Positions 19,595 through 20,554 of a stretch of DNA of 23,936 bases are shown here, piece after piece. Within the stretch, counting starts at the first letter, position 1, and the number at the start of each line of letters is the position of its first letter. Origin of the DNA: a virus; UHGV virus genome UHGV-0360783; one strand, 5' to 3'. The position numbers and the translations under genes are program-made. The notes under the pieces are model-generated. The model searched no databases, was not told the origin of the DNA, and saw only the letters and a program-made list of their open reading frames with translations.

Positions 19595-20554
19595 TTAATT
19601 TACCATCAGTCTTAGAGCCAGTTCGTCCGGATAGGGATCGAAGTAATTCTGTGTAAGCAAGTAATCATTAGGATACTCACCCAGATAATGCTTCAGCAGA
19701 GTCAACGGCGCAAGAAGAGGTAATGTGCCAGAACGATAGTTAAGTATAACCTCGCTCAACTCTTTACGCTGGCGTGTACTTAAGTAGTTACTAAAATACC
19801 CCTGTATATGCATCAGCACATTCGTGTGATTTTTACGTGATGCAGGTTTTCTGAGAATCGCCATCAGCTTATCACGATACACCTCAAAGTATGATTCAAG
19901 GTCCGCCCACTCGTGTATTGCAGCCACAAATGGTCCCATATCTTTATAGCCTGCCTGACTATGCGCCAACAACTGAAGCTTATAACGACTATGAAAAGCT
20001 AATAACTCTCTTCTTGATAATTTCTCCTTGTAAAGGTGATTGAGCTCATGCAAAGCAAAAACTCTTTCAACAAAATTCTCACGAAGCACTGGATCATGTA
20101 ATCGCCCATCCTCTTCAACCGGTAGCCAGGAAAACTTTTCCATCAAAGTGCTCGTAAATAGTCCCACTCCATCTTTACGACCTCGATTACCATTTTCATC
20201 ATAGACACGCACGCGCTCCATGCCACAGCTGGGAGATTTAGCACAAACCACAAACCCCGATACATCCTTTAATTTGTCCATATAAGAACGACTAAACTCT
20301 GTCATTCTCTCTGTCACATCCTCATTCTGGTCGTGGCTGAAACACATCCGTATATTTCCTTGCGTCGAGCGCACAAGACGTAGAGCAGGACGCGGAACTG
20401 GCAGCCCTATAGCCATTTCCGGACATACTGGTCTGAATGTTACCCATTCCACTAATTTGTCCATTAAAAAGTCAGCTCTTTTGTGACCACCATCAAAACG
20501 AACAGCAGAGCCGGCCAAACAACCGCTGATTCCAATCACAGGTTTTTTTATCAT
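19595..20554 (-). CDS. DUF523-DUF1722 fusion protein (YbgA-like; DUF523 is the thiouracil desulfidase TudS family)
   Basis: 319-aa ORF MIKKPVIGISGCLAGSAVRFDGGHKRADFL...CPEMAIGLPVPRPALRLV...SPSCGMERVRVY... with the conserved Cys-containing motifs I associate with DUF523, and a C-terminal half resembling DUF1722. GGGGGAG RBS 4-5 nt upstream of the ATG. Domain assignment is from memory, not an HMM search. Confidence 0.8.
   Translation of the reverse strand: MIKKPVIGISGCLAGSAVRFDGGHKRADFLMDKLVEWVTFRPVCPEMAIGLPVPRPALRLVRSTQGNIRMCFSHDQNEDVTERMTEFSRSYMDKLKDVSGFVVCAKSPSCGMERVRVYDENGNRGRKDGVGLFTSTLMEKFSWLPVEEDGRLHDPVLRENFVERVFALHELNHLYKEKLSRRELLAFHSRYKLQLLAHSQAGYKDMGPFVAAIHEWADLESYFEVYRDKLMAILRKPASRKNHTNVLMHIQGYFSNYLSTRQRKELSEVILNYRSGTLPLLAPLTLLKHYLGEYPNDYLLTQNYFDPYPDELALRLMVN

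What the first reader, a model, noticed from the sequence alone, without database searches (positions are those of the whole stretch)
19595..20554. DUF523-DUF1722 (TudS/YbgA-like) protein as prophage cargo within the late transcription unit
DUF523 proteins (TudS) are described as Fe-S thiouracil desulfidases, and DUF1722 is of unknown function; the chromosomal E. coli YbgA-family gene sits next to the photolyase gene phr. A divergent paralog inside a prophage late operon is unexpected. Whether it acts on thiolated nucleobases, in DNA-damage responses, or in phage-host conflict is speculation only.
Basis: partly seen in the sequence, partly recalled or inferred. Interest (0 to 1): 0.6.

Follow-up and report, generated by a model that had tools for sequence, protein, structure and literature searches.

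The report
Prophage-borne RudS tRNA 4-thiouridine eraser
The gene is real and intact, but it is a known kind of enzyme (RudS, which strips the light-sensitive sulfur from 4-thiouridine in tRNA); a 93%-identical phage copy has been assayed, and the gene sits in lambda-like prophages of about one fifth of complete E. coli genomes, so only its benefit to phage or host remains open.

Summary
Window 19595-20554 (-) is an intact 319-aa ORF with a TudS/DUF523 domain (PF04463, E 3e-40) fused to DUF1722 (PF08349, E 2e-40). It lies between antiterminator Q and the holin of a lambda-like prophage. The interpretation needs updating. This fusion is the RudS family (Jamontas et al. 2024, NAR), a [4Fe-4S] tRNA 4-thiouridine desulfidase. 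The window protein is 93% identical to RudS_vir (phage 1H12 gp66), which lowered tRNA s4U when expressed in E. coli. All catalytic residues are present (C12, C44, C110, E46, R55, S107, S109). It is not a copy of E. coli ybgA (49% identity, C-terminal domain only). No chromosomal RudS exceeds 77% identity. The gene occurs in 1136 of 5426 complete E. coli genomes, in a fixed Q / blc / rudS / AraC-like / holin module. It is under purifying selection (dN/dS 0.10) and full length in 80 of 80 viral contigs. A new detail is that blc and rudS were probably captured together: Enterobacter and Kluyvera chromosomes carry the same divergent pair. The molecular function is already known. The role in phage or lysogen is open, and the published statement that E. 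coli lacks RudS is wrong for about a fifth of the complete genomes.

The parts
19595..20554 (-). rudS-like gene, 319 aa including the stop codon: a TudS-DUF1722 fusion, predicted tRNA 4-thiouridine desulfidase
   Evidence: ORF. Pfam domains. It is 93% identical to the assayed RudS_vir and 99.7% identical to the copy in phage IdasGreatGrand. dN/dS is 0.10 against the 1H12 allele.
20108..20536 (-). N-terminal TudS/DUF523 catalytic domain (residues 7-149), with cluster ligands C12, C44 and C110 and catalytic E46, R55, S107 and S109
   Evidence: PF04463 match. Residues indexed. Six are invariant and S109 is nearly invariant in 31 homologues. The AlphaFold model matches the TudS crystal structures 6Z92/6Z96 (Foldseek probability 1.00, TM-score on target 0.70-0.73).
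19628..19981 (-). C-terminal DUF1722 domain (residues 192-309), all-helical; it is the tRNA-binding domain in RudS_KT
   Evidence: PF08349 match. The model is helical across residues 155-318. Residues 164-315 are 49% identical to E. coli YbgA. The tRNA-binding role is taken from PMC11417400.
20555..20746 (.). Intergenic region between divergent blc and rudS, with a good RBS (AAGGGGGAG) before the rudS ATG; presumed divergent promoter region
   Evidence: Sequence. The 139 alignment columns nearest blc show 6 differences between allele groups, while the 68 columns next to rudS show 14. Only a weak sigma-70-like match was found (20723-20696, 9 of 12 positions).
20747..21271 (+). blc-like outer-membrane lipocalin gene, antisense to the late transcript; probably captured together with rudS
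   Evidence: Pfam Lipocalin_2 and NCBIfam Blc subfamily matches. It is 80% identical to the RudS-linked Blc of Enterobacter and 60% identical to E. coli Blc. A divergent blc-rudS pair is present in 13 of 80 chromosomal loci.
21329..21426 (-). Presumed late promoter (pR'-like) segment directly downstream of Q
   Evidence: Assigned by position. An ATATAACAG block is shared with K-12 DLP12 downstream of quuD in otherwise unalignable DNA. This is an inference and was not tested.
21305..21328 (-). tR'-like intrinsic terminator hairpin followed by a run of T
   Evidence: Terminator scan. RNA fold energy -28.7 kcal/mol, z-score -4.5 against shuffles.
21427..21819 (-). Antiterminator Q gene (QuuD type)
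   Evidence: PF06530 match, E 2.5e-51. It is 95% identical in DNA to K-12 quuD up to window position 21445.
18513..19243 (-). AppY/YdeO-like AraC-family regulator gene, frameshifted in this window (T8 tract shortened to T7 near 19122-19128); 243 aa when intact
   Evidence: Pfam HTH_18 and HTH_AraC matches. The frameshift was located against IdasGreatGrand. The intact form is 32% identical to AppY over its full length. RefSeq marks it as frameshifted in identical copies.
18430..18451 (-). Intrinsic terminator between the cargo genes and the holin gene
   Evidence: Terminator scan.
18340..21444 (.). The 3.1-kb exchangeable cargo module (38% GC against 56% in the structural genes); K-12 DLP12 carries nmpC and IS5 at the same place
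   Evidence: Homology with DLP12 stops at 21445 and resumes at 18339. GC values.
18109..18324 (-). Holin gene (EssD / phage 21 S type), the first lysis gene downstream of the module
   Evidence: PF04971 match, E 2.2e-35.

Best explanation
The gene encodes a RudS-type enzyme. The N-terminal TudS domain would hold a [4Fe-4S] cluster on three cysteines (C12, C44, C110). The free fourth iron binds the sulfur of 4-thiouridine at tRNA position 8. With E46, S107, S109 and R55 the base is hydrolysed to uridine. The helical DUF1722 domain docks the tRNA. The gene is cargo of a lambda-like prophage. It forms part of a 3.1-kb low-GC module (blc / rudS / AraC-like regulator) placed between Q with its pR'-tR' segment and the holin gene, the slot that holds stx or nmpC in other lambdoid phages. 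In that position Q-modified RNA polymerase must read through rudS on induction. A conserved upstream region and a terminator before the holin gene suggest that it can also be transcribed on its own in the lysogen. The most likely benefit is lysogenic conversion: lower tRNA s4U content blunts the near-UV growth delay and stringent response. What is shown here: domains, residues, fold, orthology to an assayed protein, gene order, prevalence and purifying selection. What is inferred: activity of this exact allele, its promoters, and the physiological benefit.
For: Pfam finds both domains. The protein is 93% identical, without gaps, to RudS_vir (1H12 gp66). According to PMC11417400, RudS_vir reduced tRNA s4U when expressed in E. 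coli, and its ligands are Cys12, Cys44 and Cys110. C12, C44, E46, R55, S107, S109 and C110 are present and invariant or nearly invariant in homologues. The N-terminal domain model matches TudS 6Z92/6Z96. The order Q, tR'-like hairpin, blc (antisense), rudS, AraC-like, terminator, holin is supported. The same order is seen in 74 of 80 IMG/VR loci and in all five sampled E. coli prophages, including defective Qin-type remnants. dN/dS is 0.10-0.19 among alleles. rudS is full length in 80 of 80 viral loci, while the neighbouring regulator is often frameshifted or hit by IS elements. Module GC is 38% against 56% in the structural genes. Chromosomal relatives sit in light or oxidative-stress contexts: MerR/MlrA-type regulator plus blc in Enterobacter, and the SnoaL / SDR / amine oxidase / DUF1365 / CFA-synthase operon in Citrobacter. 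RudS_KT expression diminished UVA growth delay (PMC11417400).
Against: No activity was measured for this allele. In the paper RudS_vir lowered tRNA s4U less than RudS_ST did at similar protein levels, and it gave the shortest lag on 4-thiouracil. This hints at a somewhat different substrate balance. No convincing sigma-70 promoter was found upstream of rudS (best match 9 of 12, and the scan found no more sites than in shuffled sequence), so expression in the lysogen is not established. The MerR-type regulator that accompanies chromosomal copies is absent from the phage module. The location in the late operon fits a lytic-cycle role equally well. The AlphaFold model has low confidence at residues 14-27, next to ligand C12.
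Confidence: 0.8

Rival explanations
1. RudS serves the phage in the lytic cycle. It is made from the Q-dependent late transcript after induction, which UV often triggers. It strips s4U8 from host tRNAs so that UVA cross-linking, uncharged tRNA and ppGpp do not choke late protein synthesis. This is not exclusive of the lysogenic-conversion reading.
For: rudS is on the same strand as Q and the lysis genes, lies between them, and is downstream of a tR'-like terminator. This position is fixed in 74 of 80 viral loci. No strong independent promoter was found. Viable phage genomes carry the gene (IdasGreatGrand, 1H12 and the Lambda_ev series).
Against: The gene stays intact in defective Qin-type remnants that have lost replication or structural genes (E. 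coli HS). There a lytic function could not be selected. A terminator separates the cargo from the holin gene and the upstream region is conserved, as expected for an independently expressed cargo gene. Late expression leaves little time to de-modify the tRNA pool.
Confidence: 0.3
2. The phage enzyme acts mainly on small molecules, as TudS does. It would desulfurate 4-thiouracil or 4-thio-UMP for salvage or detoxification, rather than act on tRNA.
For: The TudS domain and its catalytic residues are conserved. RudS_vir gave the shortest lag on 4-thiouracil among the RudS proteins tested. Its tRNA activity appeared lower than that of RudS_ST at comparable protein levels (PMC11417400).
Against: No RudS protein supported growth as TudS did, and none used 2-thiouracil. 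All six RudS proteins, RudS_vir included, lowered tRNA s4U. The DUF1722 domain is under the same strong constraint, with many invariant positions, and the S239/R240 pair corresponding to the tRNA-binding Ser243/Arg244 of RudS_KT is retained.
Confidence: 0.1
3. The gene is a neutral passenger that hitch-hiked with blc or the AraC-like regulator and has no selected function in E. coli.
For: The module is foreign (38% GC), and other genes in it decay: the AraC-like gene shows frameshifts and IS insertions. In BL21 rudS is truncated by IS3.
Against: dN/dS is 0.10 over 74 substitutions between allele groups. The gene is full length in 80 of 80 viral loci. At least 80% of it is covered in 1064 of 1136 carrier genomes. 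All catalytic residues are kept.
Confidence: 0.05
4. RudS edits tRNA as a weapon in phage-host or phage-phage conflict. It could remove a recognition mark used by a tRNA-targeting defence nuclease, or destabilise host tRNAs (Tyr, Ser) to exclude superinfecting phages.
For: Indirect only. Loss of s4U exposes tRNA-Tyr and tRNA-Ser to degradosome decay in Vibrio, and RudS_KT expression halved two tRNAs in E. coli (PMC11417400; PMC13602947). The Q-to-holin slot often carries conflict or virulence cargo.
Against: None of the three cargo proteins matches PADLOC defence models. There is no partner nuclease or toxin in the module. Chromosomal homologues sit in light or oxidative-stress loci, not in defence islands.
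Confidence: 0.05

Closest known systems
RudS_vir (Escherichia phage 1H12, H3V29_gp66; Jamontas et al. 2024, NAR, PMC11417400)
   Same: Both are 319 aa and align without gaps at 93% identity. The ligands are the same (Cys12, Cys44, Cys110). The flanking module is the same: Q, blc, rudS, 243-aa regulator, holin. RudS_vir lowered tRNA s4U when expressed in E. coli.
   Different: There are 21 amino-acid differences and 7.8% DNA divergence (dS 0.30). The window copy belongs to the commonest allele group (at least 99% identity in 597 genomes). Here the neighbouring regulator is frameshifted.
Chromosomal RudS of Enterobacteriaceae (Salmonella RudS_ST = STM1389/ORF319; Citrobacter, Enterobacter and Kluyvera homologues)
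   Same: The length (319 aa), architecture and catalytic residues are the same. Identity is 70-77%. Some have the same divergent blc neighbour.
   Different: The phage clade is a separate long branch outside the chromosomal enterobacterial clade. The chromosomal copies sit with a MerR/MlrA-type regulator and a transthyretin-like gene (Enterobacter) or close a SnoaL / SDR / DAO / DUF1365 / CFA-synthase operon (Citrobacter). The phage copy has lost that regulator and lies in a late operon.
RudS_KT (Pseudomonas putida PP_0741), the mechanistic reference
   Same: It has the same two-domain design. The catalytic Glu51, Ser111, Ser113, Arg60 and Cys17, Cys49, Cys114 map by offset to E46, S107, S109, R55 and C12, C44, C110 here.
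   Different: It is under light-responsive LitR control next to a photolyase gene (PMC11417400).
TudS (stand-alone DUF523; PDB 6Z92, 6Z96)
   Same: The N-terminal domain has the same fold and the same three-cysteine [4Fe-4S] site.
   Different: TudS is a single domain of about 150-166 aa that acts on free 2- and 4-thiouracil and 4-thio-UMP. Sequence identity is about 26%. This protein carries an extra DUF1722 domain.
E. coli YbgA (b0707, next to phr)
   Same: It has the DUF1722 domain and is 49% identical over residues 164-315.
   Different: YbgA has no catalytic domain and had no effect on tRNA s4U in the paper. The window protein scores below the NCBIfam YbgA equivalog cut-off.

Membership tests
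RudS (TudS-DUF1722 tRNA 4-thiouridine desulfidase) | N-terminal TudS/DUF523 domain | tested here: met
   PF04463 at residues 7-149, E 3.1e-40. The model matches TudS structures with Foldseek probability 1.00 and TM-score on target 0.70-0.73.
RudS (TudS-DUF1722 tRNA 4-thiouridine desulfidase) | C-terminal DUF1722 domain fused in the same polypeptide | tested here: met
   PF08349 at residues 192-309, E 1.9e-40, in a single 319-aa ORF.
RudS (TudS-DUF1722 tRNA 4-thiouridine desulfidase) | Three conserved cysteines that hold the [4Fe-4S] cluster | tested here: met
   C12, C44 and C110 are present. They occupy the same positions as listed for RudS_vir and RudS_ST in Table 1 of PMC11417400 and are invariant in 31 homologues.
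RudS (TudS-DUF1722 tRNA 4-thiouridine desulfidase) | Catalytic Glu, two Ser and Arg (Glu51, Ser111, Ser113, Arg60 in RudS_KT) | tested here: met
   E46, S107, S109 and R55 lie at the same offsets from the cysteines. E46, R55 and S107 are invariant and S109 is nearly invariant. The mapping is by offset, not by direct alignment to RudS_KT.
RudS (TudS-DUF1722 tRNA 4-thiouridine desulfidase) | Converts s4U in tRNA to U | not testable with these tools
   This was shown in vivo for the 93%-identical RudS_vir and in vitro for RudS_KT (PMC11417400). This allele has not been assayed.
RudS (TudS-DUF1722 tRNA 4-thiouridine desulfidase) | Binds an oxygen-labile [4Fe-4S] cluster | not testable with these tools
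   Only the ligand residues can be seen in the sequence.
TudS (stand-alone thiouracil desulfidase) | Single-domain protein of about 150-166 aa that supports growth on 2- or 4-thiouracil | tested here: not met
   The protein is 319 aa with a second domain. In the paper RudS_vir did not behave like TudS and did not use 2-thiouracil.
YbgA (E. coli b0707 equivalog, NCBIfam PRK10167) | Score at or above the curated equivalog cut-off, and a stand-alone DUF1722 protein of 169 aa | tested here: not met
   The score is 190.8 bits against a cut-off of 237, and only residues 160-315 match. Identity to YbgA is 49%.
Prophage moron (independently transcribed cargo in a late operon) | Foreign base composition and variable presence at a fixed slot | tested here: met
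   Module GC is 38% against 56% in the structural genes. K-12 DLP12 has nmpC and IS5 between the same Q and holin genes.
Prophage moron (independently transcribed cargo in a late operon) | Own promoter and own terminator | tested here: inconclusive
   A terminator lies at 18451-18430. A conserved upstream block exists. Only a weak promoter match was found, and the scan found no more sites than in shuffled sequence.
Anti-phage defence systems (PADLOC) | Match to a known defence protein model | tested here: not met
   RudS, Blc and the AraC-like protein gave no PADLOC hits.

The most novel reading that the evidence does not exclude
Prophage-borne RudS could make tRNA s4U content, and with it the near-UV growth delay and stringent response, a strain-variable and horizontally transferred trait in E. 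coli. The phage may also exploit it during sunlight or UV induction to keep late translation running. The blc-rudS pair would then be a portable light or oxidative-stress module lifted from an enterobacterial chromosome and rewired from MerR control to phage Q control.
Probability: 0.3. Interest if true: 0.55.

Novelty: already known. Interest (0 to 1): 0.3.

Why it matters
The molecular identity is settled, so the value lies in the context. First, primary and review literature states that E. coli lacks RudS (PMC11417400; PMC13602947), yet 21% of complete genomes carry an intact copy on prophages. Strain differences in s4U level and UVA response may therefore be determined by prophages, and conclusions drawn from K-12 or BL21 do not generalise. 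Second, a tRNA-modification eraser fixed in the Q-to-holin slot, the slot that holds Shiga toxin genes in other phages, is a clean case for asking whether phages manipulate the host epitranscriptome. Third, the co-captured blc-rudS pair points to a functional link between an outer-membrane lipocalin and tRNA de-thiolation in light or oxidative stress that has not been examined.

Tried and rejected
I looked for a recent chromosomal donor. The best match in the 5.8-billion-protein search and in the species-representative genomes is 76-77% (Citrobacter), so no donor was found. I looked for the AraC-like gene next to chromosomal rudS. There was no hit apart from one weak, unrelated AraC-family match, so that gene joined the module separately. 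I searched for tRNA genes and Rfam RNAs in the window, as found in the Q-S region of Stx phages. None were found. PADLOC defence models gave no match. The sigma-70 promoter scan found no more sites than in shuffled sequence, so it cannot place a rudS promoter. DNA alignment of the segment downstream of Q against K-12 DLP12 showed only short conserved blocks, which is not enough to define pR'. A literature search for YbgA, lipocalin and prophage cargo returned nothing relevant; the bioRxiv hit concerned murine lipocalin-2. PDB sequence and fold searches found no solved structure for DUF1722. I rejected the idea that the gene is a duplicate of E. coli ybgA.
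Full report
**Observation**

An ATG-started ORF of 319 aa occupies 19595-20554 on the minus strand. Pfam places PF04463 (2-thiouracil desulfurase = DUF523/TudS) at residues 7-149 (E 3.1e-40). It places PF08349 (DUF1722) at residues 192-309 (E 1.9e-40). Both scores are far above the curated cut-offs.

The surrounding genes form a lambda-like late region on the same strand:
- RusA, YbcO and antiterminator Q (21427-21819);
- then the cargo;
- then the phage 21-type holin (18109-18324), lysozyme and Rz;
- then Nu1, terminase, the E-type capsid protein and the tape-measure protein.

**What the protein is**

The TudS-DUF1722 fusion was named RudS in 2024 (Jamontas et al., NAR, PMC11417400). 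According to that paper, RudS enzymes convert 4-thiouridine in tRNA to uridine. The TudS domain carries a [4Fe-4S] cluster on three cysteines, and DUF1722 helps to bind the tRNA. Expression in E. coli lowers tRNA s4U and, for RudS_KT, shortens the UVA-induced growth delay.

One of the six proteins tested was RudS_vir, gp66 of Escherichia phage 1H12, with ligands Cys12, Cys44 and Cys110. The window protein aligns with gp66 over all 319 residues without gaps at 93% identity. It is 99.7% identical to the copy in the isolated phage IdasGreatGrand.

The catalytic residues are all present:
- The window protein has C12, C44 and C110.
- At the offsets that correspond to the catalytic Glu51, Arg60, Ser111 and Ser113 of RudS_KT, it has E46, R55, S107 and S109.
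- The S239/R240 pair corresponds to the tRNA-binding Ser243/Arg244 of RudS_KT.
- These positions are invariant or nearly invariant in 31 homologues.

An AlphaFold model (mean pLDDT 79) has an alpha/beta N-terminal domain. Foldseek matches this domain only to the TudS crystal structures 6Z92, 6Z93, 6Z96 and 6ZW9 (probability 1.00, TM-score on target 0.67-0.73). The C-terminal half is an all-helical domain with no solved relative.

PHROGs already holds the family as phrog_3275, of unknown function. PADLOC has no match.

**Relation to host genes**

E. coli K-12 YbgA, encoded next to phr, is a 169-aa stand-alone DUF1722 protein. It is 49% identical to residues 164-315 only. The NCBIfam YbgA equivalog score (190.8 bits) is below its cut-off of 237.

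The nearest full-length relatives are chromosomal 319-aa RudS proteins of Citrobacter (76-77%) and of Klebsiella, Enterobacter, Serratia and Salmonella (70-75%). In a neighbour-joining tree the E. coli phage and prophage alleles form their own long branch, sister to the chromosomal Enterobacteriaceae clade. The gene is thus neither a ybgA paralogue nor a recent capture from any sampled species.

**Anatomy of the locus**

Compared with K-12 DLP12, DNA homology (95%) runs through Q to window position 21445. It resumes at 18339, 15 bp before the holin start codon. The 3.1 kb in between is an exchangeable module, and K-12 has nmpC and IS5 there. The module is 38% GC against 56% for the structural genes.

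Reading along the minus strand from Q, the features are:
- a 100-bp segment that shares an ATATAACAG block with DLP12;
- a strong hairpin with a T-run at 21328-21305 (fold z-score -4.5), which looks like pR' followed by tR';
- a blc-like lipocalin gene on the opposite strand (20747-21271);
- a 192-bp intergenic region;
- rudS, preceded by a good ribosome-binding site;
- an AraC-family gene (18513-19243);
- a second intrinsic terminator (18451-18430);
- the holin gene.

Because homology with DLP12 resumes only 15 bp before the holin start codon, no stretch shared with DLP12 remains in which a late promoter for the lysis genes could lie between the cargo and the holin gene. The late promoter most plausibly lies upstream of the cargo, and Q-modified polymerase would then read through rudS. 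This supports the claim that the gene lies within the late transcription unit, but it rests on anatomy and was not tested.

Independent expression in the lysogen is plausible but unproven. The blc-proximal two thirds of the intergenic region is more conserved between allele groups than the rest (6 differences in 139 alignment columns against 14 in 68). The promoter scan gave only a 9-of-12 match and found no more sites than in shuffled sequence. No tRNA genes or Rfam RNAs are present.

**Distribution and selection**

- The rudS DNA is found in 1136 of 5426 complete E. coli genomes (1064 with at least 80% coverage). There are three allele bands: at least 99% identity in 597 genomes, 95-99% in 429, and 90-95% in 110.
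- The whole Q-to-holin segment is covered at 80% or more in 958 genomes and in 12 deposited phage genomes.
- In every sampled context the order is Q, blc, rudS, AraC-like, holin. The contexts were a DLP12-site prophage in GF131, a prophage with a DLP12-type nin region (ybcN, ninE, ybcO, rusA, ylcG) in strain 38, a prophage with a different nin region in 2013C-4282, and Qin-type elements in HS, MB06171 and BL21.
- The same order holds in 74 of 80 IMG/VR loci.
- Between the window allele and the 1H12 allele there are 51.5 synonymous and 22.5 non-synonymous changes, giving dN/dS 0.10.
- rudS is full length in 80 of 80 viral loci.
- The adjacent AraC-like gene, by contrast, is decaying. In the window a T8 tract is T7, which causes a frameshift. 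Among the viral loci the tract is T8 in 43, T7 in 7, T6 in 2 and T9 in 1. IS1, IS2, IS3 and IS911 insertions are common there.
- rudS is also intact in the defective Qin-type remnant of E. coli HS, which has lost its early region. This suggests selection at the level of the host. In BL21 the gene is truncated by IS3.

**Origin of the module**

In 13 of 80 species-representative chromosomal loci, a Blc homologue 74-82% identical to the phage Blc lies divergently upstream of rudS. The genera are Enterobacter, Leclercia, Lelliottia, Huaxiibacter, Buttiauxella, Raoultella and Kluyvera.

- In Enterobacter the order is blc, a MerR/MlrA-type regulator, a transthyretin-like gene, then rudS.
- In Kluyvera cryocrescens blc and rudS are directly divergent, 112 bp apart, as in the phage.

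The phage Blc is 80% identical to this RudS-linked paralogue but only 60% identical to E. coli's own Blc. The blc-rudS pair was therefore most likely captured as a unit from an enterobacterial chromosome, and the MerR-type regulator was lost.

In Citrobacter, rudS closes a SnoaL / SDR / amine oxidase / DUF1365 / CFA-synthase / DUF2878 / DUF3833 operon. From my own knowledge, not tested here, this gene set is typical of photo-oxidative stress regulons.

The AraC-like gene (32% GC) is absent from these chromosomal loci. When intact it is 32% identical to AppY over its full length. It belongs with the prophage-borne AppY, PatE and Psr type regulators reviewed in PMC10877973.

**Mechanism and role**

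The chemistry can be stated with high confidence by orthology. What the gene does for phage or host is not known.

I favour lysogenic conversion: less s4U8 means less UVA cross-linking, and so a weaker growth delay and stringent response. Three observations support this. The gene survives in defective prophages. It has the hallmarks of independently expressed cargo. Its chromosomal relatives sit in light or oxidative-stress loci.

A shift toward free thiouracil substrates is hinted at by the RudS_vir growth data, but the strong conservation of DUF1722 makes it less likely. Neutral hitch-hiking is contradicted by the selection data. A role in phage-host conflict has no support so far.

**Verdict**

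The feature is real but belongs to an already characterised family, and a near-identical phage copy has been assayed. Three points are new here:
- the prevalence figure, which contradicts the published statement that E. coli lacks RudS (PMC11417400; PMC13602947);
- the fixed position of the gene in the Q-to-holin slot;
- the evidence that blc and rudS were captured together.

I rate the interest as modest.

Noticed in passing
window 18513-19243 (-), frameshift near 19122-19128: The AppY/YdeO-like AraC-family regulator gene next to rudS is a pseudogene here: a T8 tract is T7. Across 80 IMG/VR loci the tract is T8 in 43, T7 in 7, T6 in 2 and T9 in 1. IS1, IS2, IS3 and IS911 insertions are frequent in this 32%-GC stretch. 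This could be decay or homopolymer switching.
   Followed up: partly
window 20747-21271 (+): The blc-like lipocalin gene lies antisense to the late transcript. It is 80% identical to the RudS-linked Blc paralogue of Enterobacter and only 60% identical to E. coli's own Blc. The divergent blc-rudS pair recurs in 13 of 80 enterobacterial chromosomal loci, so the two genes may work together.
   Followed up: partly
window 21305-21426 (-): A pR'/tR'-like segment follows Q: a strong terminator hairpin (z-score -4.5), preceded by an ATATAACAG block that is conserved with K-12 DLP12 although the rest of the segment does not align. The block may be the Q-loading or pause element for this Q type.
   Followed up: partly
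window 16781-17122 (+): A Bor/Iss-like lipoprotein gene (PF06291) sits on the opposite strand just downstream of the Rz gene (17154-17627), between it and Nu1. It is a second cargo gene of the kind linked to serum resistance.
   Followed up: no
L008 6001-6960 (Salmonella enterica, GCA_016412015.1): A 74%-identical rudS lies between ttcA and a DUF1367 phage-type gene, at a position that resembles a prophage remnant. A partial 68% hit also occurs in the record 'Salmonella phage S.Kent 1-2-1'. RudS may be phage cargo in Salmonella too, separate from the STM1389 gene listed in PMC11417400.
   Followed up: no
L002 about 760-11670 (E. coli GF131, NZ_CP172134.1): In the strain whose cargo module is 100% identical to the window, the prophage major capsid gene is split by an inserted element. 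The element carries an integrase, AlpA, a primase-like protein, SSB and its own capsid and decoration genes, and looks like a phage satellite. This insertion is not present in the window.
   Followed up: no
L005-L007, L010-L012 (Citrobacter braakii and relatives), 110-6960: Chromosomal rudS is the last gene of a SnoaL / SDR / amine oxidase / DUF1365 / CFA-synthase / DUF2878 / DUF3833 operon. This context links tRNA de-thiolation to membrane-lipid photo-oxidative stress genes.
   Followed up: no
L016 4001-4147 (E. coli BL21): BL21 keeps Q, blc and only the first 49 codons of rudS, which is cut by IS3. Together with K-12, which has no copy, this may explain why the literature describes E. coli as lacking RudS.
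   Followed up: partly
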